Below are positions 6,588 through 59,413 of a stretch of 64,000 nt of DNA, piece by piece (the first letter of the stretch is position 1; each line of letters begins with the position of its first letter). The DNA comes from Phoronis australis. Taxonomy: Eukaryota; Animalia; Phoronida. The notes beneath the pieces are model-generated. The model saw only the letters and a program-made list of their open reading frames with translations. It was not told the origin of the DNA and made no database searches. A program made the position numbers and the translations under genes. The DNA lies in NCBI GenBank assembly GCA_002633005.1, contig NMRA01000838.1, forward strand, positions 1 to 64,000, written 5' to 3'.

Positions 6588-6823
6588 TTTGAATTGCGTA
6601 CATAAACAGTACATAGAGGTATTGTATTACTGCAGGTCTATTTCTTTTGAATTGCATACATAAACAGTACAGAGAGGTATTGTATTACTGCAGGTCTATT
6701 TCTTTTGAATTGCATACATAAACAGTACAGAGAGGTATTGTATTACTGCAGGTCTATTTCTTTTGAATTGCGTTCATAAACAGTACAAAGAGGTATTGTA
6801 TTACTGCAGGTCTATTTCTTTTG
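6588..6823. repeat. 58-bp minisatellite, ~4 copies
   Basis: unit TTTTGAATTGCATACATAAACAGTACAGAGAGGTATTGTATTACTGCAGGTCTATTTC; CATAAAC at 6601, 6659, 6717. Confidence 0.93.
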
Positions 6824-6931
6824 ACTGTCATTTAAGATGCAAATGACCTGTAAAAAAACCTACCTTGGTTTATAACAATTCTCATTATAATGTCCATATT
6901 TCACAGGTACCTTGAAGTACATTATAACGAN

Positions 6932-25147: not shown

Positions 25148-26499
25148 ATATGTCTATCCCTTGCTCCGGGATATTCACAAAAAACGGGTATCGCCCGATT
25201 GTCCCAGGATTACAACCCGAAGGCCCACAAGTCCGAAAATTCGTAACACAATGTCATCAACAGCAGAGCAGCAGAACACATTAGTGGAGAACGAAAATAT
25301 AAAAACTTTAACCTCCGCAACAGCTTTAAAAAGCCTTGTTTCGAACAATTTAAAGGGTATTTGCTTGGCGGGCAATTTGTTTTAAGCAAGTCTCTAAACT
25401 CCAGAACTTTTTGTTCTAAGGTACTCTTCAAAACCTCTTGTCTGACATCGTTTTTGTTGTAAATTTTTAAACAAAGACAAAGATTTCGCTTTCGCATGTA
25501 ATTTCACGTTCAAGAGAATACTCCACTTTAGGTTAAAACATTCGTAACTATAACAATATTCAAGACTTCGAAGAGAATTAAAGCACTGCCACTCCCGCCA
25601 ACGCCCTAACGTTTGAAGCAAGTTTGAAAATGTGTTGTGGCAAACGTTGTTAAAGCTCAATAATTGTGAAGCAACAGTTTCACAAATTGGGGGGAAATTA
25701 TTCAACATTTAGTGATTTTTTAAATAATCCAACTGGGCTCTTAGGAATAATGTATATCAGTTATTTGGTTATTGTAGCATTAAAATGAGATTGTTCGTGT
25801 ATAACCATGTGATTACCAAAAACATTTGTCTTCTGTCTTCTGTCATCTGCTTGTTAGTTTGTTGATGACATAGTATGCGATTTGTTCCGGTCATGTTTAG
25901 TTGAGTCAAAGAGTTGGTTATTAACAGTTTTTCTTTTCAGAAGTCAAACAAAGGCTGAGAGATTTTAACTTCTAGACATACTTTTTTGTTGTAGAATTTA
26001 CAAGTAAGATTGAGTTTTGCTGATGGGATATGTCTAAGTTAAAGTGAGAAAAGTGTTTATTTGGAGACCTGACGCGCAGCAGCAACAGCAGAAGCAACAA
26101 CAACAAGTACTTTACATAGGGAAAATTAGATGTTAAGAACGGCAGAAGAAATGATCTTCAAAGAAGTGAAAATTTTTGCAACATACGTAATACAGGAGAG
26201 ATAATTAGACAGTCGTTCAAACAAATATTTTCGTCGAATCTTACAGGATCTCAATTGACTCATGGAATTTCATCGACCCTCAATCGACTGTAGAATATTT
26301 TATAACTCCTAGGAAGCCTGCAAACTCCTGGGGTCGATATCGACTCTCTTAGTTAATCACCAATAAAAACTCAGTTAAACAGGTACGTGACTGAAGTAGA
26401 GAATGCGACTTAATTCACATGTTTGCATTTATTTCAGTTTGTTCCTGTTTCTCAAACTATCCCATGCTCGCGCGTTAACACCACGATTAACGAGACGCC

Positions 26500-26533: not shown

Positions 26534-29500
26534 GTGAGTAAATAGCCTCTGGCTGGTATGTCAATTTCTGGGGAAACAATTCTTTTAAGAAGTGTTGTAA
26601 AAAGATCAATGTTTCATCAACATGAAAGGTTTTGTATTAATTTGTGCTTTTCTTGATCGGGCACGTAATTGGTAATCAGTGGCCGTAAACATTCGAGCGC
26701 TTGAACAATAAAAAGAGGGAGACATACAACAAGGTCAATTGATCCTGGATAAACGCATTGACTTTTTCAAATTTGGTAGAACTAATTTTCAGTGTCTGGG
26801 TGATTTTTTAACATTACAATGCCAAGGAGTTTCCGTTGAAGTTTTATAAGAATTTAGAGTTTTATACAAACGTTTGTGGTATTACCTTTTAGATTAAATG
26901 CTGGTGACACGAATGTTCAAATTTGACCCAAAGTCAATGAACTACATGTATGTAATACACAGAAAATAGTTGAAAAAAACATCAAATATGTCGCATAGTT
27001 TTTTCTAAGTATATGGTGTAATTGGTCAATTTTCGAGTCGGGCCCTTATTATATGAACACGTCACGCCTGACTCACTGTCTTAGTTCAGTGAATGGTGAA
27101 TCTTTTATAACATTACAGATTTTGACATCATACAGCCGAGCCTGATACAACAAATGAGAACAATTTTGGACCAGTATCCAGACGACGGCCAGATTCTCAA
27201 GGTACCAAGCTAGTTGATATTTTAACCTGCAGTGAACCCGCGTTCTGTCTGTTTAAGTTATGAAACGGATCTCATATAACTTTCAAAATTCGGCTGTAGA
27301 GTGTTAAAAATGCAGACAACGCTTCACTGAAAATTCTATTGCTCACGCACAATGCACCTGATTGCATTGAGACCCGTTGTTTTTGAGGAAATTGAGAATA
27401 AAAATAAGCTGCTGCGGATGTTTCGAAATCATGGAAGTGAACACGGTACGTTTGCTATGGTTGATGGGGCATTTGAGAGAGAAATCTGTCAAGTGACTTT
27501 GGAAGGTCACCAGGTAGCTGATTGTAATATGTTACTTTCTCTGTGGATGGATGTGTGTTGGGCTGTTAGTGAATCAGTTTTTGTAATTCGAAACCAAAGG
27601 GCATTTGCATCTCTTCTGTAGGGATGAGATAGATGACACTTAAATTTTGAGTGGCACATATATCCATAAGGATAGGCAAATACGTGAAGATTCACAGAAT
27701 GAATGCGATATAGAGTAGGCGATTACAAGTCGACACTCTGTTTTTCTACAAAAGTAAACCTAAATTGGATTGTTTGTTCCCACTACATGGAGGACCTCGT
27801 AAATACAAATAACCACGCGTTATTTAGGCCTACTGGTAGCGGAAAGAGATATGTAGTACAGACTTTCCAATGTTTTTAGATTTACGGGCCTCTATTGCAA
27901 GGGAATTAATATAGGATACACAATATCAGCAGTGATGAAATGAAAGAATTGAAGCTGAATCCAAGGTGATGATATGATCTTTGTCTTGTAAAGTCCTAAG
28001 GGGTCTTGAAAGTATTTGCACTTTGTTGAAGAGCTCGATACAAATGGTATTGAAAGTTAGCCTGTTATCAACAATAACACCGATGTGAAACCGGTATTAC
28101 GGCAGTTAAAACAGGTAGTAACTAACCATCTACATATAGCATTGGTAACTTCTGACAAAATAGAGCGCTAGACTGATGCTTATAATTTTAGCAAATCTGT
28201 AGTTTCGTTAAATGGATACTGAACTCGGTTTCGCCGATTTCCCTGAAAATTAGTTCTCATACATGCGAATTTAAACTCCTTGGAAGACAAAACTGTTGCG
28301 TCACGAAATTGATCCTGGAGTTCTAAGTGGACGAACTGTTTCATAATATTAGCCATGCTTGATGATTCAGCGTAAGGGGTTTTTGGACTGAGAAGGGTCA
28401 TGTAGCGAATGGACGTTTTACTTCAAAGATTAAAATTCATCTTGTCTCTCGTTCAAAGGTTAACGACGATTGCTGCTGAAGCATTCACGGAGCAGTTTTA
28501 AGTCGTTTAAGTTAAGCCTCCACACAATTTGATAAATCCATATAAAAAATCCTACACGAGTCTCAGATTTATGACATGAGCACATCTTTTTCGAAATTTC
28601 GACAAAATCCCGAGAGATTTTGCCTTTGTCATCAACATGAGACGAGTGCAGGATTTGTTTTCTCACATGAACCGTAAAAACGATCTTTTTTGCCGAGGAG
28701 CTCGATTTGCCTAAAACTTTCAAACACATTAGGCAACCTCTGTAAAAACAAGCTTTTGTAATGTAAAGTAAACCCGGTTACTTGTTGTTAACTGTTTTAT
28801 TTTAAACTTAAGAATTGTAAATTTCATTCATCTTTCGTAACAAATATTCAAGTTAGAAAGTGATACATAGTCTTTGAAGTTGTAATATTAAAACTTAAAC
28901 AAAAACAGTCAGTAAGGCTTCCCCACACGAGCACTGAATTGACCTTGAGACAGCACAGCTAGAGTCTCACCGCGTTTCTTGAAATGGGGTTCGTCTCCGT
29001 TTGAATGAACGTGGATATAGAATTCGCCGCCGAAGATGGGTTCGTTTAAGACGTTATTTGCATGTCCTTCCTACAGAAAGTGCGTACAGTTGCGACATCC
29101 GACTTGTCAATGATAACCTTGTCACTTTCACGGGATTCCGGCATTGTTTGTTTGGCGCGCGTTTAGTCGTCTTTGTGTTTTGCAGACGTATGGATTTCTA
29201 CTTTGCACTACTTCGTAATTTGCCCGTTTTATATAAAAAAGATTCCGTACTCGGTGTTCTTAAAGGAGAATGCCACCCGACTTAATTAGTTTTTTTACCG
29301 ACTTAATCGGTCTATATCCACATCGCCTCATGTACGGTCGACCTCACCTTTCCGAGAGTTATAGCGTTAACCTGTAAGGAAGGTGAGAAAATACGCAGCG
29401 ACGTCAGTGGTTCGTCTGCAGAGTGAATGCCGCTATAATTCGGTGCATCGTTCTCGCTTGTCCGAACTATGAAGCTGCGAAGAAAGCGGGTATATCGTTT

Positions 29501-32500
29501 TTTTCGACTTCCTCGAGAGTCCGAAATACTTAGGAAGTGGCTTGCGGTAGTGAAGAATGAAAGGGACGCTGTTAATAGCATATTAATGAAGTAGTATGAA
29601 GCCGTAGTGAAACATCTCCGTGTCAGTGGCCGGTATTTCGTCGACAGTGAATTCTCTGACGAATTCCGGCTAACCAAAGAAGTATCCATACGTTCTGTTG
29701 TTTGTGCATGTTCACGGCGCCTCTCTAGTATTTCTTGATCAGTGCATTCCGGTTCGAGCTGATAGCCTGTGAAACCTAACGATCCAACCCGTGAAGTCTT
29801 CGTCGTATGAGCTCTTGACTAAGTCGGGATTGGCGCCGGGCGAGTTGCCAAGTAGACGTTTATTACTCTGCGTTCTGTTTCAAAATGAATCATTCTCATC
29901 CTAACCAATGCTTATATGAAACTGAAACAAAGTCTGTCTCATTAGATACAATTTGTAACGCCTTCGAGCGGCAAATGTTTTGAGAAGCCAGCAATGAATG
30001 AACCACTGCGTTACCGGCTTTTGATGCCGACAACAAAGGTAATTAAACGGGCTAATTCAGTGTTTGGTGACGGAAAGCTGTTGGGAAACAATTACTCGAT
30101 TTTATATGCTATGGTCAAATGTTAGGGGAATCTTTATTTAGAAATACAAATACAATATTCAAATCATTCATACTGTACAACCTTTGCCCTGACGGTCTGT
30201 GGAAGGGGAACCCGAATTCGCGGCCACTGACAAGTAAGTAGATTTTCAGTTTCGAGGCTAATTCACGTAAATAATTACGTGCACGTTATTTCTTTGGCTC
30301 AGTCTTTTATACCCTGTTCGTGATTGAAGGTTTAGTTTCCAACTGAAACTGGTTTATGTTCGTGCCAGTCACGGCGGCCGCGACCGGCTTGATCGGGTTT
30401 CGAGCCACTGGCCGGGATACGAGTCCAGTCTATCTGGCCGCGACGCCGGGCCTGGTGATCAGGTTCCGAGCCACTGGCCGGGATAACAAGCGTTTTGTGT
30501 GTTTAGAATTCAAAAAAATCACAAGTATAAACAACACAGATCTAGGTTCTCCTGTCGGTTGTATTTCACGGAAGAGTACTTCTAATTTATCTCTGAACAG
30601 ACCCCAAACTCATGCTACGGACCTTGATAAATTGGCCTGGCGAACTTTGTAGGCTACGGTGTGTCCAAATGCCAGTAAATCCGTAACAGCGAAATAAAAC
30701 AACACGTTTTTATAAGAACTCGGTGTATTTTTAAGGGTTTTACATCGAAGTTTGGTGATTTATTGGTGTTAAACTATGAATTCAAGCGATGACCTGACAC
30801 CACTAACCCATGTTGTGAACTGCTGAACAGACTGCGTGTGAAACCAATTACGTCATTGGATAATTTCAACACCTCCGTCTGCCGTCAGGTGTCAGGTAAT
30901 GCAACCGAACGTGCCGTTATCGAGAAGAACTACTGGATAAATTCAGTTGATACAAAATAGGTTGTTTTGGGATGGCATTCTCCTTTAACCAGTCGTGCCG
31001 TAACACATTCTAGGGCATGTGAGAAAAATCGCTATGTCAAAATTATTCATACTGTTAGCAGAAAACCTACTCTGGGCCTGACTGTGTCATGGCTACGTTT
31101 TCGACGCTTTGGTGGCAGAGGGATATACGAGAGTTCACAACAAAACACACTTAATAGCACAAAGTTTGAACATTGTAACACCTGCAGTAACACAAGTGTT
31201 AACATCGTCATTTTGTTATGAGAAGCATCATGGAGCTCTATGAGCATTTATTGTTTTCTCAGGAACTCATTCAAAATGCTGAGGATGCCAAAGCAAAGAC
31301 GATCAAGTTTTTATTTGACAAGTCGACTTATCCAGCAAATACGGACCAACTGGTCCATCCAGAACTTGTGCACTTTCAGGTAAGCAGTGTGGATAAAATT
31401 AAGGTGACGATGTTTTGATTAATTAACTGTATTTTAAAGCAGAGAACTCTACAGTTCTATGCTTCAAGTGAAATTGAGGCCTGAAATTGTATCAAATAAA
31501 CAAAGCTGAATATTATTACACAAACTAATTTCTGGCAGCACTTGAATAGAAACTTGGAAATACGCTTTGCGTTCATGTGGTCTTTTTTGGAGATTTTTAG
31601 TCATAAAAGTCTGCAGCACGCATCTTTTTCGTTTACTTATGTGATAAATCTTTCAAGCTCTTGTACAATGACAGGTTGGCTTCAAGATAATTAGCTCCAT
31701 GATTAATAACAAGTGAAAACGGGGAAAAAGCCAGTTGCGGATTTGGGGGGTCAAGGCACACATGGTCCTCTCTAAAATTCTCTCAGCATCCATTTGGGCG
31801 TTCGTGGGTGCGAATGTCTGACGGGCAAAATCAAAATCCTGGCTCATACTCTGCCCTCCCCTCCCCAACTCAAAATCCCGGATGATCCCCTGAAAGCTGA
31901 GTTTGGAATGTTACCAAAGCCAGAAGATCCATAAGGATTGACTTCATCTGACACATAAAAGATGTTACTTGATCGCAAGCATTTTGTTTCGCATGGCCTC
32001 GTCATTATGCTCCTCTTCAACTGATTCCGATTGGCTTACGTTGTTCAACTGTTGTTATGAGGACTGTAGCACTTACCACTGCTTCAAGTAAACTCGCCCT
32101 AGAAGATTAACGAGAAAAAGAAACACGTCTTGCTTTCCAAAATGATGTTTTCCCGTTTTAATATTTTTAGCGTACCTTTACTGGTGCAGCGCGCTGTAAT
32201 CGTGTATTTGAATGGATTTTGCTGCCCAGAGAGACAATTATACGGCAGTGGCAACGAGATTCAAAAACTGACAAACGCTGAACGTACGCACATGCCCCAA
32301 TTTTTGTAACAAATATATGAAGACATTCACTCGACTGTATTTCTTCATTAGCTGCTGATGCCCGTCCCACATTTCACTCGAACGTCACACTTACAAATTA
32401 ATTGGGAACCTTGGTGTTACGTTTATCGTTAGGTAGCCAGAGTGGAAGGAACAACAATTATTCGAGTGATAATGAAATACGTCTATTCGTGACCGTGGTT

Positions 32501-35500
32501 ATACAAGCAGTGAACGTACAACTACAAACTGATGGTGAAACCATCACGTGAATACATAACATAACACGTGTTCTCTAAAAATAGTACATGACGTAAACTA
32601 AATCATTCATACATCACACTCTTTCCTCCTGAGCTGAAACTACATATCGTTAGCAACTAGCATAAATACAACACTACATGAGAATCTGTTAAACAAATGT
32701 TTGTCACAGATATTACATGTACAAATCCAGTCTCTCTGGTTGTTTCACAGTTCGCTTTGAACGTCTCGGTAAATTGCATAGTCTCAGGTAATTGCACGTC
32801 TGGCGTTTTAGCTTCCACCAAGTCTGAGATGTCCGAATGCGATGCAGGCGATTCTGCTTCGGCTAACTCCGGTTTACTAACAGCAGTTTCCGGTGCTGTC
32901 TCAGAATCTCTGTTGACAACTGGGTTAAGTACCGGTGGTACTCCAAGTGTGTCATCGTGTTGATCGCGATATTTGGACATGTCCGATGACAGATATCGTG
33001 TGCACATCTGGTCTACATGTCGTTTCCACACTTGACCGTTTTCCAATACGACAACACATGACTTCGGTGCGGGTTTCTCCATCACCGTAGCTGGCTACCA
33101 TTTTTCTTTTACTTGGAAATCTTTGATAAACACTTCTTCACCGACCACAAAGTCCCGTTGGTGGCATTTCATGTCATAATAACGCTTTTGACTCTCCTGC
33201 TTGTCATGCACCTTTTCCTCCACGCTGGAGCGTATTGCAGATAACCGCGTTCTGAGTTCGCGACCCAGAAATAAAAATGCAGGAGACTGTCCCGTAGTGG
33301 CGTGTGCTGTCGATTGGTACGACAACAGAAAACTCGCAATCCGTTGTGCAAGCGACTTTCCGGTTGACTTGCTCGTACTCAGCGCACGTTTTAACGATTG
33401 TACCATTCGTTCTGCTGCCCCGTTACTCGCTGCGTGGTACGGTGCAACTAGCACTCGCTTAACCGCATTCATTTTCAAGAAATCTTTGAACTCTTGGCTT
33501 ATAAATTGCGGACCGTTATCATTAACGAATTGTACTGGTACTCCATATCTACCAAATAACTCTCGCAAAACCCCAATGGTCGCATTTGACGTAGTGCTGG
33601 TCATATGGAGTATTTCCGGCCATTTTGAGTGCGCGTCAATCACTATCAGAAAGTGTTGACCGTCCTTTTCCGCGAAGTCCGCGTGAACACGGTGCCAAGG
33701 CTTACTTGGCCACACCCAGGGCATTAGCGGTGTCGCAGCCTCGTTGGCTTAAAATGATTTTTAAGCAAGGTACATATGTCATTATATATTTCGTCGCCGG
33801 ACATGCGGGAAATGCTAAGCATGATTTTCTCCACCAAATTCGACCTTTGTTTTGACCCATTACGGTCATTTTGGCGATTGGGTCGTTTTGGACCAATAGG
33901 AACTATTTCGGCAAATTAGCTATATTTCCAAAAGCGATTGGTGGACTTTTAGTCTCCTCGTGTACCACCTGGAGGCTATTTTAATTTTAGTCTCGACTAG
34001 TATTTCGCGAATAGTTTTCAAAAATTAACTTTAAAAGCTATACAAGATCTAATGTAAGTCCTCAAACCATCACATGAGCATCACAGTTGATGTTATCCGC
34101 TATCTTGACTTAATAAACAGACTCTTTTAGATCTAGCGTGTTTTTGGCGCTGTTATGAGCCAGGATTTTTGTATTGTCCGAGTCTATGACATGATTGTAA
34201 ACAACATAATGGTTCGTAAAAACTACCTGTTTGCATTATAGCACGCTGAGCACTTCTGGGATAGCGTGAAGTGAGGAACTGTTTTCATGTCGGTTTTTTG
34301 TCTGGTCGATGCTCACGGGACCACTGGGCAATGACAATTAGGACTGCCCGGTTTACCAAGCACCAAGTTATAAGTAAACTCTCTTTCAGATAACTGTTCA
34401 TGAAATTTAAAGCTAATGATGGGTTTACATTATGTTTCCGGCACCCATGACAACCTCATTTCAGACTACCGTAACTGTTACAAAATTAACACGGCAGTCA
34501 CGGTAATGACGAAGAACCTAGTAGGTTGCAGTGAAGCGGGAGTAGGCCAAAACGCGACTGTACGTGATGTACCGTAAAAAACTTGGAGTGGACGTATAGA
34601 CATGTATTGCGTTTCGTCTCAAAGTTTGTTCGCCTTTTGTATCGGCCTACTCACGTGCGCGTTTTGTTACGGTTCCTTAGCGTCTTGTCCCATTTTGCCC
34701 CGTTTTATGAAGGTTCCTATGGTAAGCTAAGTTGTATGGTTGTCGTTTCGTCGCGTGCGGTCAAGGCGGGTACCAGGCATTTACAGGTTTCGTTCTACTA
34801 GAATCTGACATGACCGTGCTGTCTGGGAAGTCGTCATATAGAAGAATGTGTTCTCGATGCAGTGGCGGATCTAGGACATCACAAGGGTAGGCCAACATTT
34901 GGTTCCTATGGTAAGCTAAGTTGTATGGTTGTCGTTTCGTCGCGTGCGGTCAAGGCGGGTACCAGGCATTTACAGGTTTCGTTCTACTAGAATCGGACAT
35001 GACCGTGCTGTCTGGGAAGTCGTCATATAGAAGAATGTGTTCTCGATGCAGTGGCGGATCTAGGACATCACAAGGGTAGGCCAACATTTTGTCCTTAAAA
35101 ATTTGCTCAAAGCACGATTGTAGATGCGCATAGCACCGAATGGGGGGAGGTCGTGAGGGGGGTTTGCCCCCCTCCCGCCCAGGAAATTTTTCCGCTATTT
35201 CCTCTAAAAATCAAGCAATTTCCTTGATTCCCGAAGTATTATCCAAGATAAAAAGGCAAAAAGGTGTCAGACAGAAAAAAATGTAAGTGCGACAGACTAG
35301 AACTGACGACCAAGCGGACACAGCGCGCGTGCTTTACCACTGCACCACCACGATTTAACTACTAATTTGATACTAAGAGACCTATTTGTTTATGGTCCAC
35401 AACGTTTGCGCGTGAAACCTCCTTCTTTTTCTAATACTTATTACATGTTTTTTTATTTTGTGCAATCAGTTCGTAACAAATTTATTGTATTTAAATAGTC

Positions 35501-36553
35501 TTCAATTGCTCAAAAGACCAAATCCGCAATGACGCGTTACAAAATGAAGTAATTTTCTTTATTGCAAAGTGGAGCAGACGACGGAAACGGAGTCGTAGTG
35601 CCCAGAGCCACTGCCGGTCGCCTGAGATATCGCGAGAGAGCCTATACTTATCCATAGTTCCGTTACGACTGCGCCCTGTTCCGAATTTGACACTTGAAAT
35701 TGGAACTGAGCCCTCTCCCCCCCTCCCCCAAACATTTAAAACTGCACACAATTATATCTTGTTTCAGTCGTATAATTTTAATTACCGGGGTTAATTAAGA
35801 AACTCAACATTTCCCTACGCTCTCGCTGCCTTATTTTTTGCGGCAGCCAAGGGGGGCCCTACCCCCCCCCCCCCTAAATCTGCCTATGCGATGTCTCACG
35901 ACACAATTATCAGTGACTCAGTGACGCTTTGGACAGACGTCTTAATGCCGTGGGCACAAACAAACACCAAATCAAGTATTTTTCGTACGCAGAAGGCTTT
36001 GGCAGAACGTGAAAATATGCCAGACTTTGGGCAGAGCATAAGAAACGTGAGGCCGCATCAGAACGGAAGGGCCGGAGAAGGAGAATATACGGGCAACCGT
36101 AGTTGGCAGAAATGCGGCGAAAATTTGAAGCGGAAATCCGTACTCCCTAATTTCTTTACGGTCTGTGTTAGACAACAAGAAAACGTAGCGAGATCTAACA
36201 TAACTTGAACACGGAAAAACATTGCATAACGTTTGTGAACATGACGTAAATCTAGCATTTTATAGCCATGTCTACTATAGGGACCTGCACTCTATGCCTT
36301 CAACGACGCCACCTTTGGTGAAGAAGACTGGCTGGGAATTCGAACCATTTATGACAGCTTCAAGAAAGAAGACCCGATCAAAGTGGGTCGCTTCGGACTG
36401 GGCTTCAAATCTGTTTTTCATTTGACAGGTATTTTGCTAGTTCATTCAAAAGACCACTTGCAAGTTTCCCAACTGGCACTTAAGATGGCTATCAAATTGC
36501 ATACACTCGGATAAGTTTTGGAGCTGCAGACAGTCTTACAAACGGTGCTCGAC

Positions 36554-36589
<36 letters not shown>

Positions 36590-39500
36590 CTGTGAGTGTG
36601 TGTACCTATCTATCTGTCTGTCTGTCTGTCTGCCTGTCTGTCTGTCTGTCTGTCTCTCTGCTGTCTGTTTGTCTGTCTGCTGTCTGTCTGGTTGTATGCG
36701 TATTGTAGTACTGCATACAACTGTGGTTGTATGACGTGAGGATTGTTACATTTCAAGCAATCTGTCGTCAACAGAAGTGCGACAAATTGTTGCTTTGCGC
36801 TAAATCACAATTATTTAACAAATCCTTACGCATGCAAAGAGGAAGGAGGTTATCTCCTTAGTTATGATATACAGTTTTCAAAATTGAATAGCAGTGCTAG
36901 CTTTTATGTTCTCTGTGATGTATCTTGGTGTTATCTAAAATAATGATAACTTTTACAGTGAAAACTTAGGAGTTGTTCATCGATGGCACCATTGCTCAAA
37001 TGTATATTCGAGCGTGAAGTGATCGTGCAACATAGCTTATGTAATAAATGGGCTCGTACGGTTATTTTATCGTGTCCACACCACGTCACTGAACGTACAC
37101 CAGTTTGTGTTTATGTTCTTTTGTAGACTTGCCTGGCGTTCTAAGTGGAAACATGATTGGACTTCTAGATCCACATGAGAGGTATTTCCACGATGACAGA
37201 AATCGTCCACTGAAAGGAGCTTGCTGGCATCTAGCTGATATTGGCGATGATCAATCAGGGTTTTACACCCCGTTCACTGACCCTAACCTTGGTCTCGTTT
37301 TCAACAAGACGTTCGTCAGAAATAATTACTATCCTGGCACTTTATTTCGATTCCCGTTGAGGACAACCAGTAACAACTCAGAATTATGTACCGGTGAATA
37401 TCCTGTAGATAAGGTGAAAGTTCTCTTTGAGCAGTTTGAGCAGTACTCATACATGTGCTTGCTCTTCCTCTCGTCACTGGAGTCAATAGAGTTGTATATA
37501 CGCGAGTCTCTCGACCACAAACCAAAGATATTATTCAAAGTGGAACTAGCTGAAAAGACCAAATCCACTATAAGACAGAAACGACAGTCGTTTCTAGCGA
37601 ATATTGATACAAAAAACTGGTCAAACATTCCTGAATACTTGAGCCAGGAAATGATAATTCATTCACAAAGCAGTAAAAAAGCAAAACATCGTTGGCTGGT
37701 TACAAATTTTTTCGCAGGTGGTGATCGTCTGCCAAGACTAAAGCAACTGTTTCAAGAAAAGACATTGTATTATCTTCCCTGGGTAGCTGTTTCAATGTCT
37801 TTGGATCTTAACTTGCAGCCTCAACACCCTCAAGGTCACGTTTTTTGTTTCTTGCCACTTCCTGTGGAACAAAAGAGCCAAACGGGCCTACCTATCCATG
37901 TGAATGGATTCTTCGCCATTGATCAAAATAGGCGTCATTTGAAGTGGCCAAACGCCGAGCAACTGAGATCTGAGTTGACGGACAGGAGCTTGCTTTGGAA
38001 TCAAGCAATGCTAGAAGAAGCTGTGCCTCTGGCTTACACAGAGCTCATCCGGGAAGGAACAAGAATCAAGATTCCCCAAAATCTTATATACCAGGCAATT
38101 CCGTGTTTGGGAGTTGTAGACAGTAAATGGCTTCAAATGGTACATACTTTTCTAGATTACGTTACGACTATTCCTTTCCTTTACACCATACAAGGAGGCG
38201 GTCAACACATAACACTTGATCAAGCGTTGTTCAGCTTCCTTTCTGAGACGAAGCATCCAGACACGATTAATGCCATATTATTGAAAGCTGGCAGACATGT
38301 CGTCTGCGTTCCAGATCATGTGAAACTTGCATTGGAAAGATTCAACAAAGAGGTTGTCACTCCTGAACATTTGAGAAGAGCGGTGATGGACATTCAAAAT
38401 ACAATGGAACCATTTCCAGAAAGTGAATCTCATTGTATGGAGATCTTGGCCTATGCAGTAGCAGATGAGAATTACAGTGGCGTTGTTGACCTCAAGTTGC
38501 TGCCATTGGCAAGTGGACTCTTCACGGTATTCCACAAACAATACAGTGAACGAGACAAGGTTTACATTACAACACCCGATCACCCGGCTGAGTTATTTCC
38601 AGGACTTGAAAATCGACTTGCTTGTCACATGGTAGACCACAGGCGACAAATTCTAGAAGCAATTGCTTCATCTGGTAAGTTGACTTATTCTAAGCATTGC
38701 ATGAACTGCATGTAATGAACCTTTTAAGTTTGCGAAAAAACTGACAAGTAGGCCTACGTCATTCTGTTACTCGCATTGTTTGTTTCACAAGCTTAAAGAG
38801 TGCATTGTTGCCCGATTGACATGAAACGTATACACAGCCTAAGTTCGGAGAGATAAATGTTTTAAATAACACGGAGATATTGCAGATAATTAGAATTTCA
38901 TTCACAACACGTCATTTTCCATGAAGTTTTGAAAAAATGTCAGTAATATTAGTGGCTTTTTTTCAGGGAAAACAAACTTGGTATTGATGACAAGAGAGGA
39001 CGCCTTGAAGATGTTGTCTCTGGTCCTCCATTCGCCTGAATGTATGTATGTTGAATGGGATCTTGATAATGAAAAGCACATCACACGAGGTTGGATTGAA
39101 AAGTTGTGGAACTACCTAAACAAGATGTTCTTCGACGATCTTTGTCCTGTGGAAAATTTAATGCTCCTGCCGCTGAGAGCATTAAATGGTACATGGTACC
39201 TGAAACGGCTTACCAAGAGGAGTCCAGTAGTTTACAAGAACTCCGAAGACAACGATCTTCACGCTTCTATATTTGATTTCCTAAAACACGTAGGCATCTT
39301 CGTTGTAGATGAACTGTCGCCATTTGTCAAACGCCACTCGATGATTTGCGAGTATGTGAATTCGCTTTCGGTTTCTGGTATATTAAAGTGTCTGTCCTTC
39401 CTTGACCGTGATACGGTCGTTACAAAGATGACGTCACTCCTCCCGGATATGGTGTTAAAATTTCGCAAAGAACTTGCAAAAGCCGATGATTGCGTTCTCA

Positions 39501-42500
39501 ATGATAACCGTGAATTTCTTAGATCATTACCGATGTTCAGAGTTACAACAAACACAGTTCACTCTGTGGCAGAACGGCTCTATTCCATTAACGAAATTGG
39601 AACAATGTCACCCGTTGAACAATTTTCGTTTAAATTACCTAAGCCTCTGATCGTGCCAGAAGACAAATTCACGGAGCGTTTGTGCTGCGTGCTTAAAATT
39701 CAATCACTTTCTCTGAGAGACCTTTTGGTTGACATGATATTTCCAAACATTTCGTTGTACCCTCACACAGAAATGGACCAACTCCTGGCCTATGTCATTA
39801 GAAACCACACGGCGCTAATTAACAGAGATACTGCCCTGCAGAATTGTATAAATGGAGGTGATCATTTTCTTTGCAATAGTGGCGTGGCTGCAAAGCTTAA
39901 AAGTCTCTACGATCCGTCAAGTCAGAAACTTCAGCGTCTTTTCTGTGGTCAAAAAGTCTTTCTTTCGGGTGCTTGTGCATCAGCTGATATTCTTCCTCTA
40001 CTACGCGAACTTGGCTTGAAAACTTTGAAGGATGTGATGCCCCAGGACATTCTGCAAGCCGCTCAGCTTGTTGCTAGCTTACCCTATGACAAAGGCGTTG
40101 AAAAGGCGAATGAAATTCGAAAATTTCTTTCCACCCAGGTAACGACACAGATTGTTGCAAACCCCTTGCATCGGAATTTAGAAAATATCCATTGGATTCC
40201 TGTAAAAAAGCGCCCTGTTAAATATCCGACCTCTTTAGCATGGTTTGGTGAAAACAGCAGTTTTCAGACGCCATCTCTGCTGTGTGATGTATCGACCAGC
40301 AGCCTGGTGGGATCTGTAAGGGAAGTTGCAGACATGAAGTTGGTGGATGGAATGCGTTATGCCGACATAACAACTGAAGAGGTCGTTGCTAACCTTTCCA
40401 ATGTGGTTGATGCAGCAGAAAGAAGTAGCCCAGACGAGTGTTCACTCTTCCTTCCCATCGTGGAAGCCATCAACCTGTTTTTACAAAACCAGCTAAAAAA
40501 TGAGTCTAATCAAGTGAGCAAATTCCGAATGATCTTTGAAGGAAAGAAATGCATTTTCATTGCCGGCGTTAACAAGTTTGTGACACCTCGTGAAATTTCA
40601 TTTCTAGATGATTTATCTCCGCTTCGATACATGGTGCCAAGTGAAATGAAGCTACACTTTCGCCAACTTTTAGAAGCAATGGGTGTTGCACAGAAATTTG
40701 ATGTTGAAGAATACTGTAATGTTCTGTCTGAAATCAAATCAAATAGCAACAATCAGCCTCTGAGCGAAGACATGCTTAATCTGTCGAGAACAGTTGCAAA
40801 CTGCATTGCAAATTCCGTAAAAGGTAAAGAGTTTAATAGGGACGTCTACTTACCAGATGAAGCTAACAAAACTATGCAGTTGTCGTCCACTCTTTGTTTT
40901 AATGATTGCCCTTGGATACCAGACTCTGATATGCCATTTGTAGACGTTAACATACCGTACCCTGTAGCACAAGTGTTAGGAGTGAAGACGAAGCGTAGGA
41001 AAACAATAGAAGGATCATCGTTTGAAATTGCATTTGGCCAAAAAGAAAGTCTTATAAATAGAATTAAACGCATTCTTGATGGATATCCTGGCCCTATTGA
41101 TATATTGAAGGAAATGCTACAAAACGCTGATGATGCACAGGCAACTGAGGTCCACTTTTGTCTCGACAGTCGCTATCATCCAACTGATCGAATCTTTGAA
41201 GACAGTTGGAAGCCTTTACAAGGCCCCGCGCTTTGTGTTTACAACAACAAACCTTTCACTAAGGAAGACGTGGAGGGTATTCAAAATCTAGGGGAAGGTA
41301 ATAAAGGGACTGATCCCACGAGGACAGGGCAGTTTGGGGTTGGCTTCTGTGCTGTGTACCATCTAACAGACACTCCGTCCTTTCTCACAAAAGTTACGGG
41401 AGAAGGCGAGAGGCTGTATGTGTTTGACCCGCATTGTGCTTATGTTCCTAATGCAACTCCACTCGCACCAGGAAAAGGTTTCAAAGACTTAAACGAGCTT
41501 AGGAAAACATTCCCGCATGTTTTTGAGTGCTACGACAGTATCGTCACAGAAGACCATATGGTTGATGGTACACTATTCAGATTTCCCTTGAGAAGCCACA
41601 AAATGGCAAAGAAATCCGAAATCAAGAAAACTTGCACAACTGTTGGAGACGTTCGCACAATGATGCTTGCATTTAAAGAAGAAGCCAAGTCGTGTCTGCT
41701 ATTCCTTAACAATGTTAAAAAGGTTTCTTTGTACGAAATTGAAGATGACATATCTCAAATGGACACTTTCACGGTGACGGCTGATCATTGCAAGCCACAC
41801 GACGTAGAGGAGCTGAATAGGTTCAAATCATACCTGAATTCAGTTTCTCGTACAGGATTGCGTTTACTTCTTCGGTCGCAGGAAGTAGCATATGAGACGA
41901 CGATCACGGATTCTGAGGGCAGTAGTAAGAGTTGGCTCATAGTTCAAAAGTGCGGGTTTGAAACAAGTGATTACATATCTGAGCGTATTCGCCGTGCTGT
42001 TTCTGCAAATGAATTGCCACTTCTGCCGCGTGGCGGTGTTGCTTGCGAATTAATGGACCATGAAGCTTTGAAACCATGCAGCATATTCTGTTTTCTCCCA
42101 TTGCCTCAAACAACACATTTACCTGTCCATATTAATGGCCACTTTGCATTAGACCATGAAGCAAGGCGACGTGTTTGGGAATCTGCAGACGAAGACGTGA
42201 AGACAGAATGGAACAGATTGATAAAACGTCTTGTCATTGCTCGTGCCTATGTGCGGCTGGTGGAGGAATTCAAAAAGCGAGTAGTTTGTTCTACAGATTA
42301 TGGTACTACCACATTGACTCAATTACGAAAATATCTAAATTTGTTTCCTAAAACTAGAGACACCTCTGAAATAACTACATCCATTGTCCGAGAGTTTTAC
42401 AGAATCCTCGGTGACAAAGAACTTGATGCTTTACCGGTAGTCTTACGTAATCCCAACATCCGTGACAGTTGCTCTGTGACTTGGCTACCAGCACGTGACA

Positions 42501-45500
42501 AGGGAGTGAACGGAGCCATGTTCAATAACCTACGAATATCTGCATTTCCTTTGACATTGTCAGGAGAAGCAGAAAATCTTTCTCCCAAACTCGCCTCCTT
42601 GTTACTTAGGTGTGGTGTGAACCTCTTATGGGAGCAATGCTCGACGCTCGCAGATGAATTTGAAGCAAGCAAAGTGAAGATACTTAAGTCGACACCTGAA
42701 AGTATTATCGACTTCTTTAAGAATCTTAGTGTGGACACTGAAACCTTACTAACAGTAGACGAAGTCATTGAAATTCTCCTGTACTGTAAACAAATTGGAC
42801 AAAGTTTTGTCAACCGTCTAGAAGGCACACAGCTTCTTGTAGTTGAATCAGGAGACATGCAAGTCTTCTCCAAAGTCGTTCCGAGATACTTGTCATTGAA
42901 CACGTTTTTGGTAACGGAGGATTACCTTGACAAATTTGTTCACAATGAACTGATAAGACGCGTGTTTTCTCCACCTTCCCAGTTTCTTCGATCACCGATG
43001 TTCAAAGACGTTTCTCTTCATTGCTTATCACAAATGATGCCCAGCGAGTTAAAAGGTAAACCTGAGATACAGTCGGTTGAGAAATGGTGGCAATTGATGA
43101 CCCGATTTTGGACTTTCGTCGGCGTGAAAGAAAAGAATGATCCCTATATGTCCCTCAGTCCTGTAGCGGATTTCTGTCTCATACCAGCATATCGCAAGAC
43201 AAATGATCGCATCCTTGTCCAAATTAAAAGAGCAAAAACTGTAGTACTTCGTGACCCTAACATATCTTTTTCACACTTTGGAGTCCAATATTGTTTGGAA
43301 TCATTGGACGTGCCTTTTCTGATCACTGACGCCAAATTTNACGTGAAGACAGAATGGAACAGATTGCTGACACGTCTTGTCATTGCTCATGCCTATGTGC
43401 GGCTGGTGGAGGAATTCAAAAAGCGAGTAGTTTGTTCTACAGATTATGGTACTACCACTTTGACTCAATTACGAAAATATCTAAATTTGTTTCCTAAAAC
43501 TAGAGACACCTCTGAAATAACTACATCCATTGTCCGAGAGTTTTACAGAATCCTCGGTGACAAAGAACTTGATGCTTTACCGGTAGTCTTACGTAATCCC
43601 AACATCAGTGACAGTTGCTCTGTGACTTGGCTACCAGCACGTGACAAGGGAGTAAACGGAGCCATGTTTTATAGCCTACCAATATCTACATTTTCTTTGC
43701 AATTGTCAGGAGAAGCAGAAAATCTTTCTCGCAAACTCGCCTCTTTGTTCCTTAAGTGTGGTGTGAACCTCTTATGGGAGCAATGTTCGACGCTCGCAGA
43801 TGAATTTAAAGCAAGCAACGTGAAGATACTTAAGCTGGCACCTGAAACTATTATCGACTTCTTTAAGAATCTTAGTGTGGACACGGAAACCTTACTAACA
43901 GTAGACGAAGTCATTGAAATTCTCCTGTACTGTAAACAAATTGGACAAAGTTTTGTCAACCATCTAGAAGGCACACAGCTTCTTGTAGTTGAATCAGGAG
44001 ACATGCAAGTCTTCTCCAAAGACGATCCGAGATACTTGTCATTGAACACGTTTTTGGTAACGGAGGATTACCTTGACAAATTTGTTCACAATGAACTGAT
44101 AAGACGCGTGTTTTCTCCACCTTCCCAGTTTCTTCGATCACCGATGTTCAAAGACGTTTCTCTTTATTGCTTATCACAAATGATGCCCAGGGAGTTAAAA
44201 GGTAAATCTGAGATACAGTCGGTTGAGAAATGGTGGCAATTGATGACCCGATTTTGGACTTTCGTCGGCGTGAAAGAAAGGAATGATCCCCATATGTCCC
44301 TCAGTCCTGTAGCGGATTTCTGTCTCATACCAGCATATCGCAAGACAAATGATCGCATCCTTATCCAAATTAAAAGAGCAAAAACTGTAGTACTTCGTGA
44401 CCCTAACAAATCTTTTTCACACTTTGGAGTCCAATATTGTTTGGAATCATTGGACGTGCCTTTTCTGATCACTGACGCCAAATTTTCTTGCAATGTTCTT
44501 TGGTCAGCTGTAAGCAGTATAGACAAGCCGTTAGATATATTGCAGGTTGCTGAACAATTGCGGAAGAGTAATGCCATCCAACGTAAACTCACAAGAGATC
44601 AGAGAACACGTTTCCTACAACATCTTTGCTCCATTAAGGAGCATTTGGACAAGGACAGAATAAGACGCCTGCCACTATTCTGTACTAAAGGTGGATCAGT
44701 TGTGAGTATTGCGAATAAAAGAGCTGTGGTTCTTGGATCCGACATACCATCCATAGATGCTCACTTGTGGGAAAATAACGCCAGTGTTGTCTTTCTGGAC
44801 AGTACATTAAGTCAATCAGTTATAAAGTATCTTGGAATTGAGACGATGGATGGCTCTGATCTGTATGTCAACTACATTCTACCACACTTTGGTAACATGT
44901 CGGGGAATGGAACACTTGAACATCTAATTTTCATTAAAGATGTCATCAGCAGAAACTTGAGGAGAGATTATGAGAAGCGTGAATACTTTTTATCACAGTT
45001 GAGAAATGTGCGTTTCATTAAGAGTAAAGACGGGGTACTGTGTAAAGCTAGCAATTTCTTTGACTGGGAACGAGACATTTTTACAGAGATGTTGCAGAAA
45101 CACTATTTCCCGCCAGAACCGTTCAAAAGCAACGAGTGGCATTCGTTTTTGGTGGATCTTGGACTGCAACAAAATGTTTCAAGTGATCAGTTTGTTAAGT
45201 TTGCAAAGGAAATTGCAATGCTTGACAGCAAACTTCAACATAAAACCAAGCTTAGAAAGTCAAAATTGTTGACCAATTATCTTGCGGAAAATTATCAAAA
45301 ACTTGGACCTGCCATCAGCCGTGTGAAAGACATACGGTTTGTTGCACAAACGGAAATGCCCGCAGGTATACTTAAAATGCAGGCGCGCTATAGTGACGAA
45401 AACTTCGGAAAATTCAATGGAGCTGTTCTTGGTAATATTAATGTTCATTTATGTTGGAGCTCCGCAGTTATCTTAGAGAGTAATCCACGCATAGACGAGA

Positions 45501-46780
45501 GTCTGGCTCTATCTTTGGGAGTATATTTACAGCCACCACCTTCTCTTGTCATCAGGCACTGCTCTAACCTGTGCTCCTCATTCCAGAAGCATAAGCTAAC
45601 TGGTCACCAACAATCCTGGGGTACTGGTTTAATATCACGCGTTATGGAGGAAATCTATAGATTTCTTGAAAATTCTGCCTTAACAGTTTCTGAGCAAGAG
45701 CAGCTTCGAAGTATTGCTTTTGTACTTGTTAGCGATCACAAAACGTTTGTGTTACCGCGGCAAGTGGTGGAAGACATCACGGAAGAGCAGCAGATTATGC
45801 CATATCTTTTTAAACTACCTAGAGACTTAGATAGATATCACCGTTTATTTCTTGAGCTGGGGGCCAGTCGGAGCCTTAATGTGGATCTGATTGGAGAAGT
45901 GCTATACGAAATCAAGAAAGATGCAGGTGGAAACTCTCTTGACTGCGGAAAGGAGAAGAAAGCACACAAAGCTCTCTTGACTTTGTTAAGCTCTACGAGC
46001 ACAGACATCCAAACGGCAAGTTTTAGTAGAGGCCTTTATTTACCAACGCGTGACATGAAGATGGTTCTAGCCAACGAATGTGTTTTCATCGACGACGAGC
46101 GAATTTACGAAGACGTCAAAAACAGCCTCCCCTACCCAGTACTGGCCGTTCCCCAATCAACTAACGTTGACTATAAAAACAAGATAGCCGTCATTAACGA
46201 ACATTTTAGGCCGCTGATGTTATCTGATATCATGCATATGAAAGTGGAAACGGATGGCAAGTTAGTTAGCCAGGACCAGTCGAAGAATGCATTTGTTAAA
46301 AAGATTTATGCTCGACTGACAAGTGGCTTGTTTCATCGTGCAGTCGCTAGACTTATGTATCATGTCAACTTTAAGAAGAGACTGCCAGTCACAGGAGTCC
46401 TGAAAACTATGCAACAGAAATTTAGCACAGTTAAGGTTTTTGAAGCTGAAAAGGTCAGAGCGTTTTATGTCGACGCCGCTAGAGGAAAAAAAGTTTGTGA
46501 AAACAAAAACTGCACAGGTGTATCCTTCGATCGTGGCACAGGATTTCCCTTGAAGGTTTATATCCAGTCAGATGGGCAAAAATCGGAGGTTTATAATTCT
46601 CTGGTAACCGGTATTGCACACTATTCCGGAGTCGATTTTGGTATGCATGTATTACAACTGTTAGAGCTTGTAAAACTTGAAAACTCGCCCCGTGATTTTG
46701 ATTTCCTTCTGGACAAGTACGAGATTCAGCGACTTCCTGCAATGGAAGATTCAGAACGACGTACCAAAACACGACGTTGA
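26500..46780 (+). CDS. SACS: sacsin-like protein, 6 coding exons (26500-26533, 27119-27201, 31263-31379, 36281-36428, 37127-38674, 38967-46780); ~3247 aa as assembled, ~2865 aa if the 1146-bp duplicate is an assembly artefact
   Basis: All five GT-AG introns join in frame (phases 1,0,0,1,1). There are two sacsin-repeat HATPase_c-like modules (ELIQNAEDA...GRFGLGF and EMLQNADDA...GQFGVGF), each followed by FRFPLR and FCFLPLP...LP.H.NG.FA motifs. The symbol is a family-level call; orthology is not established. Confidence 0.9.
27119..27201 (+). CDS. sacsin-like exon 2 (FDIIQPSLIQQMRTILDQYPDDGQILK)
   Basis: TTACAG acceptor and GT donor at 27202; matches the start of sacsin repeat 1; missed by the ORF track. 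Confidence 0.88.
29264..30984. mobile_element. non-autonomous Kolobok-like DNA transposon (1721 bp) in sacsin intron 2
   Basis: TTAA|AGGAGAATGCCACCC ... GGGATGGCATTCTCCT|TTAA: ~15-bp TIR, TTAA target duplication, purine-purine termini. Confidence 0.8.
31263..31379 (+). CDS. sacsin-like exon 3 (ELIQNAEDAKAK...VHFQ)
   Basis: TTTTCTCAG acceptor, GTAAGC donor, 117 nt; carries the GHKL N-box ExxxN. Confidence 0.92.
32415..33750 (-). mobile_element. Gypsy/Ty3 LTR retrotransposon 3' fragment: integrase, PPT and 3' LTR
   Basis: PWVWPSKPWHRVHADF...NDNGPQF...PYHAASNGAAERMV (DDE triad). A premature stop at 33095-33097 is followed in frame by the WKRHVDQ C-terminal module. The polypurine tract AGGAGGAAAGAG (32630-32619) abuts a TGTGATGT...ACGTAACA LTR (32618-32415). 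Confidence 0.9.
33095..33724 (-). pseudogene. retroviral-type integrase core (rve), truncated
   Basis: DDE residues present, no upstream RT/RNase H, in-frame stop before the C-terminal domain. Confidence 0.88.
34712..35089. repeat. 189-bp tandem duplication (2 copies, 1 mismatch seen)
   Basis: GGTTCCTATGGTAAGC...GGCCAACATTT at 34712-34900 and 34901-35089. Confidence 0.95.
35049..35888. mobile_element. non-autonomous TIR element (840 bp) with apparent 5-bp TSD
   Basis: CGATG|CAGTGGCGGATCTAGG ... CCTAAATCTGCCTATG|CGATG; imperfect 16-bp TIR. Confidence 0.65.
36281..36428 (+). CDS. sacsin-like exon 4 (GPALYAFND...KVGRFGLGFKSVFHLT)
   Basis: TATAG acceptor and GT donor at 36429; carries the GHKL G2 box; not in the ORF track in this frame. 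Confidence 0.93.
36559..36690. repeat. (TG)n plus (TCTG)n microsatellite
   Basis: direct inspection. Confidence 0.95.
37127..38674 (+). CDS. sacsin-like exon 5
   Basis: TTTTGTAG acceptor and GTAAGT donor at 38675; GTLFRFPLR, GHVFCFLPLP, TGLPIHVNGFFA motifs. Confidence 0.93.
38967..46780 (+). CDS. sacsin-like giant terminal exon (7.8 kb)
   Basis: TTTTTCAG acceptor in frame with the 2600-aa ORF; second sacsin repeat starts FGQKESLINRIKRILDGYP at ~41030. Confidence 0.93.
42195..44485 (+). repeat. 1146-bp in-frame direct duplication joined by a single N (43340)
   Basis: 42195-43339 vs 43341-44485, ~97% identical by eye. Confidence 0.95.
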
Positions 46781-58339: not shown

Positions 58340-59413
58340 TCATTTGTTAATTTGCAACTGTTTTCTCCTTGAAAGATTTGGCGTGGAGTCAGGTGACTTC
58401 ATGACCTTTCCGTTAATTTCTATTGTATCTGAGAAATGAACGCGGTTCGTTTTAGCCTTAACTTCCTTGTCATCATTTTCATCTTGCAGAAGACCGTCTG
58501 CTTTGTTGTTTTCGGACTTTTCACCTAACCCCTTATCATCATCCTCGTCCTCATCGTCTAAATTTTCTAAAATTTTTTGGAATTCATCAGATCCTTCAGG
58601 GACTATTTTCATCGTTACTTTTCTGTCCAACTGGGGACTGTATGTTTTAATGCAGAAGTCGATATATTGTCTTACGCCATCTTGTTTCAGATGGTCTGCT
58701 TCATTCAGGTTCCCCAGTAAAGCTTTCTTTGGCACACTTTGAGCAGATTCTTCAAATGGCTGCAAAAATGCCCGAGGGGACCTAGGACTTACGGACGGAG
58801 AACGCGACACGTTACCTCCACCTATGGGTGGTAAGTGCATGGATAAGGAATCGGAAGGAAATCTCCGTCGACCAATGCGGGGAGATAACAATGCACTATT
58901 CGGCCGCCCTCTACCCACTGTTTCATTATAATGCAAAGGGCTAAGCCGTGGTCGAAACGTCAAGTCAAGGTCGTCTCTGCTTCCTCGTCGAGGTCTGTGG
59001 TTTATGGGGAATTTAACCATGCCCGAGAAACTATCCACGAAACCGGATTTCTCAGCTGCATGCTTACTTGTTGGTTCCACCCTTAATCGCTCTCGTGGAG
59101 AGCGTTCTTTGGATCCATCTGTTTTTCCATCATTCTTCTCGTTTTTTCTTCTCGGAGAGACATTGGACACATTTCTAGGTTGAAGTCTTGGAGTCGCAAT
59201 GTGCTTCACACTGTCATAGCGGCTTGCGTCATTCACCAGCGTGTGATCAACATTATCGACACCAGGGAATCGGTCACAGCTGTTCGCCTTCTTTAATAGT
59301 TTTTTGTGCGGACGTTGACAGATGGACAGGGGAGACGAAAAGAACCTCCCACCGTTTTTTGGGTGTCTGTCATTTCCTCCGCCATCGTCTTCGATCTTTT
59401 TTACTTGGGCCAT
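58340..59413 (-). CDS. uncharacterised, largely disordered Ser/Pro/Arg-rich protein (357 aa) with acidic tract and RVxF motif
   Basis: 1074-bp ORF in AT-rich DNA with protein-like composition. A splice acceptor (GATTTTTAG) at 59460-59459 lies 45 nt upstream in frame, and a candidate upstream donor is at 59792. No recognisable domain. Confidence 0.72.
   Translation of the reverse strand: MAQVKKIEDDGGGNDRHPKNGGRFFSSPLSICQRPHKKLLKKANSCDRFPGVDNVDHTLVNDASRYDSVKHIATPRLQPRNVSNVSPRRKNEKNDGKTDGSKERSPRERLRVEPTSKHAAEKSGFVDSFSGMVKFPINHRPRRGSRDDLDLTFRPRLSPLHYNETVGRGRPNSALLSPRIGRRRFPSDSLSMHLPPIGGGNVSRSPSVSPRSPRAFLQPFEESAQSVPKKALLGNLNEADHLKQDGVRQYIDFCIKTYSPQLDRKVTMKIVPEGSDEFQKILENLDDEDEDDDKGLGEKSENNKADGLLQDENDDKEVKAKTNRVHFSDTIEINGKVMKSPDSTPNLSRRKQLQINK

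What the first reader, a model, noticed from the sequence alone, without database searches (positions are those of the whole stretch)
42195..44485. Two versions of a sacsin segment differ overwhelmingly by amino-acid changes, with a hypervariable patch
Seen: across ~381 codons I count by eye about 28 codons with replacements and about 6 with only synonymous changes (~3% nucleotide divergence), with no indels or stops. Fourteen replacements fall in ~61 codons (42521-42703 vs 43667-43849, e.g. NNLRISAFPLTL vs YSLPISTFSLQL, EASKVKILKSTPES vs KASNVKILKLAPET). The join is a single N, so the copies are probably two alleles or two paralogues rather than a true internal repeat. Inference: dN/dS is near or above 1 and clustered just downstream of the second ATPase module. 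That pattern suggests diversifying selection on a recognition surface, i.e. a candidate polymorphic sacsin-based immune or self/non-self system. Relaxed constraint on a dying gene is the main alternative.
Basis: partly seen in the sequence, partly recalled or inferred. Interest (0 to 1): 0.8.

Follow-up and report, generated by a model that had tools for sequence, protein, structure and literature searches.

The report
Two sacsin versions, false tandem join
The apparent repeat is an assembly error that joins two real versions of one expressed sacsin-like gene of an invertebrate; they differ mostly by amino-acid changes, likely because selection favours variety in this part of the protein, as already proposed for coral sacsin genes.

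Summary
The counts are right: 28 of 381 codons replaced, 6 synonymous only, no indels or stops, 14 replacements in 61 codons. The tandem is an artefact. No read or contig crosses the N, and a chromosome-level assembly of the species (B1) has version A once, between single flanks. Both versions are real, and the gene is spliced and transcribed. At least four further haplotypes exist, some mosaic. B1 also has a second, about 98% identical match 78 kb away that I could not fetch, so alleles (about 60%) versus tandem paralogues (about 40%) stays open. dN/dS is 1.25 (95% CI 0.54-3.4), against 0.42 upstream, but not significantly above 1. The patch beats uniform placement (p 0.0007) but is borderline under a neutral coalescent (p up to 0.13). 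It starts at a length-variable, low-confidence loop and is not a shared hotspot in homologues. Selection for diversity (about 50%) and relaxed constraint in a redundant copy (about 38%) are not separated; a dying gene is unlikely. Balanced sacsin haplotypes are already published for Acropora corals. The immune role is inferred only. The scan's earlier notes held no such sacsin case.

The parts
27119..27201 (+). Predicted exon, start of first sacsin (SACS, GHKL-type ATPase) module; further 5' exons not found
   Evidence: tblastn and profile hits; AG/GT ends and phase; splicing not seen in reads
31263..31379 (+). Predicted exon with ATPase motif I (ELIQNAEDA)
36281..36428 (+). Exon with the glycine-rich ATPase motif
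   Evidence: 4 X8 reads carry its end as a loose end at 37125
37127..38674 (+). Exon: rest of first SACS module and following region; several similar copies in DNA run X1
   Evidence: Pfam SACS E 2.5e-19; X1 depth 24-47 versus about 10 elsewhere
38675..38966 (+). GT-AG intron
   Evidence: spliced in 6 X8 reads from 5 starts
38967..46780 (+). Long last coding exon (about 6.7 kb once the false copy is discounted); stop at 46778-46780; no J or HEPN domain in the window
41030..42194 (+). Second SACS ATPase module and transducer-like part; motifs intact, low variation
   Evidence: Pfam SACS E 1.4e-78; human SR1 5v44 E 2e-37; TMt 0.83; 3 differences in 965 nt, X1 versus window
42195..43339 (+). Version A of the segment
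   Evidence: identical at all 37 sites to B1 copy 1, which runs from the upstream flank through A into 44486 onward
42521..42703 (+). Patch in A (codons 109-169): 19 nucleotide differences, 14 replacements; begins at a length-variable loop
   Evidence: pLDDT under 50 at model residues 503-517 = codons 114-128
43340..43340 (.). Single N: false join made by the assembly
   Evidence: no read or contig crosses it; loose ends at 43341 match window 42165-42194
43341..44485 (+). Version B of the segment
   Evidence: RNA run X8 matches B; the X5 contig (3905 nt) runs from the upstream flank through B past 44700 with 5 differences
43667..43849 (+). Patch in B
   Evidence: pLDDT under 50 at codons 113-121 in the B model

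Best explanation
A and B are two real versions of one segment of a spliced, transcribed sacsin-like gene that the assembly falsely placed end to end, and their excess of amino-acid differences is likely kept by balancing or diversifying selection on a predicted client-binding region behind the second ATPase module. Shown: the false join, the reality of both versions, expression, an open frame, several further haplotypes, and a cluster of related copies on one chromosome. Inferred: the protein (about 2,850 aa, two GHKL ATPase modules, no J or HEPN domain in the window) works as an ATP-driven clamp whose helical repeats bind changing stress- or pathogen-derived clients. Recombination or gene conversion would shuffle the variants. 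The versions are more likely alleles (about 0.6) than 78-kb tandem paralogues (about 0.4).
For: False join and both versions real. Expression and splicing. dN/dS 1.25 in the segment versus 0.42 for 25 classified upstream changes; N:S contrast p 0.086, 0.048-0.09 with extra states. omega of 0.5 or less is rejected for the segment (p 0.015). The patch holds 19 of 37 differences and more synonymous change than the rest (p 0.005-0.04), as an older genealogy would give. Third states occur at codons 16 (R/H/P), 120 (T/P/Q) and 165 (S/P/L), and F arises at codon 136 by two codons; five codons hit twice, p 0.036 under uniform placement. Among the listed indels none is coding (2 of 2 are intronic; none). 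Two haplotypes at about half depth in X1 bubbles (5.5+8.4 and 4.1+3.8 versus 8-11) and no B-type X1 contig over 43654-43731 favour one diploid locus. [quoted passage not shown] The modules match antiphage TmtA profiles, best E 4e-50.
Against: dN/dS is not significantly above 1 in any count. A neutral coalescent gives such a patch in up to 13% of matched runs. The double hits are unremarkable once patch density is allowed for (p 0.17). Replaced sites hit conserved columns at the random rate (6 of 83 versus 22 of 298, p 0.59) and their BLOSUM mean equals chance. The whole post-ATPase region diverges 1.8-4.3 times faster than the ATPase in 12 of 12 homologue groups, and the patch ranks first in only 2 of 12. 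It is not the peak among 31 same-length homologues. A second near-identical match in B1 and the missing J and HEPN domains both suggest redundancy. No functional data exist for this gene.
Confidence: 0.5

Rival explanations
1. Relaxed constraint without selection for diversity: a live but redundant, C-terminally shortened member of a tandem cluster accumulates near-neutral replacements in a region that is already weakly constrained. The patch is ordinary genealogical variance, picked out by the assembler.
For: omega CI includes 1 and values down to 0.54. Changes look random with respect to conservation and chemistry. The region is fast in 12 of 12 homologue groups. Second 98% match 78 kb away. 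No J or HEPN. Neutral simulation p 0.004-0.13 for plausible recombination rates. That young duplicates pass through omega near 1 is recalled, not from a call.
Against: Upstream omega 0.42 and a nearly invariant second ATPase region show constraint close by. The patch is hard to obtain if rho/theta is 5 or more (p 0.011 or less). Independent coral data show balancing selection on a sacsin-like gene.
Confidence: 0.38
2. The patch is an imported tract, by gene conversion from a diverged paralogue or by introgression, and was not built up by selection in place. This can hold together with either reading above.
For: Synonymous excess in the patch. Fine mosaics in X1 and X6, with all four gametes at 43808/43875. 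Related copies on the same chromosome. Introgression has been proposed as an alternative for coral sacsin diversity.
Against: Intermediate codons (CCA, CCG) still segregate, which fits stepwise change. No contig that could be a donor was listed for the patch in X1 (contigs drop variants). The other known paralogue is only 72% identical.
Confidence: 0.15
3. A dying gene or pseudogene under no constraint.
For: omega near 1 in the segment, loss of conserved residues in B (N110Y, P289S), and an ORF that ends before the J and HEPN domains. RNA depth is low and uneven across runs.
Against: Stranded, spliced RNA. An open frame of 1,345 codons in L001. No coding indel listed although X8 differs from the window at 103 places. 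Intact ATPase motifs, with 82% of conserved ATPase columns kept, versus 74-89% in the five named homologues. Upstream omega below 1 (p 0.048). The absence of stops alone is weak (p 0.06-0.14).
Confidence: 0.05
4. A true internal tandem duplication, or consensus errors.
For: The frame is kept across the N.
Against: Loose ends at 43341 equal the flank of A in 3 of 4 runs, and X6 has no coverage there. L001 has one copy. Homologues have one copy of the segment.
Confidence: 0.02

Closest known systems
Acropora sacsin-like gene under long-term balancing selection (bioRxiv 10.1101/867754, section 5 and passages read; PMC8626496, parts 1-2 of 3 read)
   Same: Sacsin-like gene with divergent haplotypes and many replacements (29 N versus 20 S fixed between the two main haplotypes). 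Diversity is raised between the Hsp90-like and J domains, broadly the region seen here.
   Different: The coral gene is single-copy, keeps J and HEPN, has two deep trans-species haplogroups and a lower N:S ratio. Here N:S is 30:7, haplotypes are fine mosaics, J and HEPN are absent from the window, a near-identical second match exists, and age and frequencies are unknown.
Human sacsin (SACS): Ubl, three Hsp90-like repeats, J, HEPN (architecture as in PMC3710099, passages read)
   Same: SACS module matches Pfam PF25794 and the solved SR1 domain. Most of the protein is encoded by one very long exon.
   Different: Two modules rather than three, no Ubl found, no J or HEPN in the window, several paralogues, and highly polymorphic.
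Tiamat (TmtA) and Tiamat-like GHL ATPases (bioRxiv 10.64898/2026.09.30.754977; abstract, section 17 and passages read)
   Same: PADLOC TmtA hits over both ATPase modules and the downstream region. The preprint places sacsin in one clade with Tiamat and proposes that helical folds after the ATPase bind targets (untested there).
   Different: No nuclease domain was detected here by Pfam. The preprint tested no eukaryotic homologue for antiviral activity.
False heterotype duplication in genome assemblies (bioRxiv 10.1101/2020.05.22.110833, passages read)
   Same: Divergent haplotype contigs placed in tandem across a gap.
   Different: Here the two contigs could instead be collapsed tandem paralogues.

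Membership tests
Sacsin-like protein | SACS (Hsp90-like GHKL ATPase) module | tested here: met
   Pfam PF25794 above cut-off twice; SR1 match by sequence and fold
Canonical sacsin | Three SACS repeats | tested here: not met
   two modules in the window; exons upstream of 27119 not identified
Canonical sacsin | C-terminal J and HEPN domains | tested here: inconclusive
   a profile of 29 homologue C-termini matches only positions 24-215 of 509, then a stop follows; no J or HEPN hit in six frames; exons beyond the window are not excluded
False duplication by assembly | No read or contig across the join; each version joins single flanks | tested here: met
False heterotype duplication (alleles) | Both versions at one locus, each at half depth | tested here: inconclusive
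   half-depth bubbles in X1 but no single-copy control; the second B1 match was not obtained
Gene under diversifying selection | dN/dS significantly above 1, overall or at sites | tested here: inconclusive
   1.25, CI 0.54-3.37; too few phased haplotypes for site models
Gene under balancing selection | Local excess of old variation, intermediate frequencies, trans-species sharing | tested here: inconclusive
   local excess p 0-0.13 by simulation; frequencies and sister species not available
Polymorphic immune or self/non-self receptor | Variable residues cluster on an exposed binding surface | tested here: inconclusive
   the densest changes flank or lie in a low-confidence loop; no coordinates were returned for accessibility; no clear fold match
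Polymorphic immune or self/non-self receptor | Induction by infection, or genotype-dependent resistance or recognition | not testable with these tools
   no treatment data for runs X6-X8
Tiamat | GHL ATPase plus C-terminal PD-(D/E)xK nuclease | tested here: inconclusive
   ATPase similarity met; no nuclease family in the Pfam scan; the C-terminus was not folded
Pseudogene | Stops, frameshifts, no spliced RNA | tested here: not met

The most novel reading that the evidence does not exclude
Invertebrate sacsin-like genes are a Tiamat-derived, hyperpolymorphic innate recognition family. This member has shed its J and HEPN effector end and acts as an ATP-driven sensor or decoy whose specificity is set by a rapidly diversifying loop after the last ATPase module, reshuffled by conversion within a tandem cluster. 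Corals and this lineage would have reached balanced sacsin polymorphism independently.
Probability: 0.15. Interest if true: 0.75.

Novelty: new member of a known kind. Interest (0 to 1): 0.3.

Why it matters
If selection is confirmed, this is a second animal lineage besides Acropora with amino-acid-rich sacsin polymorphism. That would favour pathogen pressure over the heat-chaperone explanation offered for corals, and it would point to a specific loop to test. It would also bear on the open question, stated in the Tiamat preprint, whether animal sacsin-like proteins kept a defence role. In practice, the gene model in this assembly carries a false 382-residue duplication.

Tried and rejected
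No whole genome was held for the window. The second B1 match (11,304,384-11,307,795) could not be obtained, so its type is unknown. Its bit score implies about 54 mismatches in 3,412 nt if ungapped, and it stops matching 26 nt before the stop codon. A word-share estimate for X5 could not tell where its differences lie. Two protein searches with the segment or C-terminal part found nothing at E 0.001 or better, so no extra allelic proteins were gained. Fold searches of the segment model gave no clear match (best Z 5.6, rmsd 3.4, 89 aligned; Foldseek best E 0.36). A shared hotspot in homologues was not found. Avoidance of conserved columns and conservative bias were not found. No indexed holder was on record as RNA, and X5 is RNA by guess only. 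Read tables were partial: 40 of 295 rows and 40 of 50, and 22 of 23 differences of the 2,262-nt X1 contig were classified. Zero depth on 43250-43339 is not counted as evidence, because such reads also fit the end of B. Literature searches: sacsin + balancing selection, 7 papers; + presence-absence variation, 0; + gene expansion + immune, 3; + paralogs + HEPN + evolution, 4; broader searches. None listed a site-level selection study of a non-coral invertebrate sacsin. The library is open-access only and no supplements were read. PMC8745260 had none of the terms sought. Earlier scan notes on sacsin in this genome or by sequence: none.
Full report
Observation. The window holds 42195-43339 (A) and 43341-44485 (B), 96.8% identical without gaps and joined by one N. 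Over 381 codons there are 37 nucleotide differences: 28 codons replaced, 6 synonymous only, Nd 30, Sd 7, dN/dS 1.25, no stops or indels. Fourteen replacements fall in codons 109-169 (p 0.00065 against random placement).

The gene. The segment lies in a long exon (38967-46780) of a sacsin-like gene with two SACS ATPase modules. Five exons with compatible phases give about 2,850 codons if the segment is counted once. RNA is stranded on +. One intron is spliced in 6 reads and another junction is seen in 4 loose ends of run X8. The best named relative is a Lingula sacsin-like protein at 46%, and the genome index labels the species invertebrate; I infer no finer taxon. No J or HEPN domain was found in six frames of the window, although three homologues checked in detail differ on this and P0077 and P0024 have HEPN. 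The modules also match antiphage TmtA profiles.

The join is false. In one search, everything that reaches 43341 (one X1 contig, one X5 contig, 3 X8 reads; X6 has no coverage there) continues to the left with the sequence of window 42165-42194, the flank of A. An A-type X1 contig runs on to 44603, and a B-type X5 contig runs from the upstream flank past 44700. A chromosome-level assembly of the species (B1) has A exactly, at 37 of 37 sites, once, between single flanks. This fits the false duplications described in bioRxiv 10.1101/2020.05.22.110833 (passages). Both versions are therefore real and neither is a consensus error.

Alleles or paralogues. For alleles: X1 shows two haplotypes at about half depth in two bubbles and no B-type contig over the left patch, and X5, X6 and X8 each show one version. 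For paralogues: B1 has a second match 78 kb away (98%, about 54 mismatches by bit score, ending 26 nt before the stop) and a 72% paralogue, and X1 depth is 2-4 times higher over exon 37127-38674. The second match could not be obtained. It may be B, a third version, or a retained haplotig. I put alleles at about 0.6.

More haplotypes. X1 is a mosaic of A and B with a new letter at 43750. X5 is B with 5 differences, all replacements, two of them A-type. X6 is a third mosaic, and X8 equals B at listed sites. Codons 16, 120 and 165 show three amino acids, and two intermediate codons still segregate. Five codons are hit twice (p 0.036 uniform, 0.17 given patch density).

Is it selection? For: upstream, 25 classified changes (X1 versus window; 22 of 23 in one contig and 3 of 3 in another) give 15 N and 10 S, omega 0.42. 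In the segment, omega of 0.5 or less is rejected (p 0.015). The N:S contrast has p 0.05-0.09. L001 versus window outside the segment gives 5 N and 4 S. The patch is also rich in synonymous change. Against: omega is not above 1 in any count (CI 0.54-3.37), the segment is doubly ascertained, and the upstream pair is a different pair of haplotypes. A two-sequence neutral coalescent gives 19 or more differences in 183 nt in 0-13% of runs with matched totals, across 21 parameter sets. Replacements do not avoid conserved columns (6 of 83 versus 22 of 298) and are as radical as random changes. In 12 of 12 multi-member homologue groups (from 120 proteins in 38 clusters) the post-ATPase region diverges 1.8-4.3 times faster than the ATPase, and the patch ranks first in 2 of 12. 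Among 31 same-length homologues at 93-100% identity the patch equivalent is not the peak.

Structure. Models of A (770 aa, pLDDT 76) and B (399 aa, pLDDT 80.5) place the densest changes (codons 110-120) at the entry to and within a low-confidence loop, which varies widely in length among homologues. The rest lie on the following helices and strands. The segment has no clear solved fold. Exposure could not be computed.

Dying gene. This is unlikely. RNA is spliced, L001 has 1,345 open codons to the same stop, and no coding indel is listed although X8 differs from the window at 103 places. ATPase columns are kept as well as in named homologues.

Mechanism. Shown: two real versions of an expressed, open, polymorphic sacsin-like gene in a cluster of related copies, with an amino-acid-rich segment. 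Inferred: an ATP-driven clamp whose helical region binds variable clients, with variants kept by balancing or diversifying selection and shuffled by recombination or conversion (0.5). The main rival is relaxed constraint in a redundant, shortened copy (0.38).

Known context. In Acropora millepora a sacsin gene is the top genome-wide diversity peak, with 29 N and 20 S fixed differences between haplotypes (10.1101/867754, section 5 and passages). [quoted passage not shown] Introgression has been offered as an alternative (10.64898/2026.02.07.704610, passages). Oyster sacsins are poly(I:C)- and virus-responsive (PMC7064767, passages), and one lies in the highest FST region for herpesvirus survival (PMC9437489, passages). 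Sacsin is among coral-diversified genes (PMC6208414, one passage). Sacsin groups with Tiamat, and no eukaryotic homologue has been tested (10.64898/2026.09.30.754977, abstract, section 17 and passages). No supplements were read; those of the coral papers may hold domain-level dN/dS.

Verdict. It is a new instance of a known kind, a polymorphic sacsin-like gene, with selection plausible but unproven and the immune role inferred. Interest 0.3.

Noticed in passing
B1:C1:11165197-11307795; L001: The chromosome-level assembly holds at least three sacsin-like matches within about 140 kb (99%, 98%, 72%). The 98% match stops aligning 26 nt before this gene's stop codon, so it may have a different C-terminus, possibly with J and HEPN.
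   Followed up: partly
window 37127-38800: X1 depth is 24-47 here versus about 10 elsewhere, with two contigs differing from the window at 41 and 18 of 383 nt; the 5 displayed shared differences are all replacements. This may be a second variable region in the first module, or close paralogues.
   Followed up: partly
proteins P0037-P0120 (31 of length 3016): Thirty-one same-length sacsin-like proteins from unnamed ENA and Logan assemblies are 93-100% identical, with 369 variable sites concentrated in the N-terminal 1,700 residues: a ready allele or ortholog series for a selection test in another species.
   Followed up: partly
window 2415-4129: Aldo/keto reductase exons upstream of the sacsin-like gene.
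   Followed up: no
window 33098-33748 (-): Integrase core (rve) fragment inside an intron of the gene, a retroelement remnant.
   Followed up: no
window 9779-19046 and 24246-25154: Array of about 1.2-kb tandem units built from about 300-nt subrepeats.
   Followed up: no
window 6586-7889: Short-period tandem array with another single N at 6931; a further single N at 2006 has no duplicated flank.
   Followed up: partly
window 44402-44436: Opposite-strand RNA reads in X6 and X8 share about 35 nt with this exon at 4 mismatches and continue into unrelated sequence; probably another transcript matching by chance.
   Followed up: no
window 58343-59458 (-): Open frame of 372 codons with no Pfam match.
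   Followed up: no
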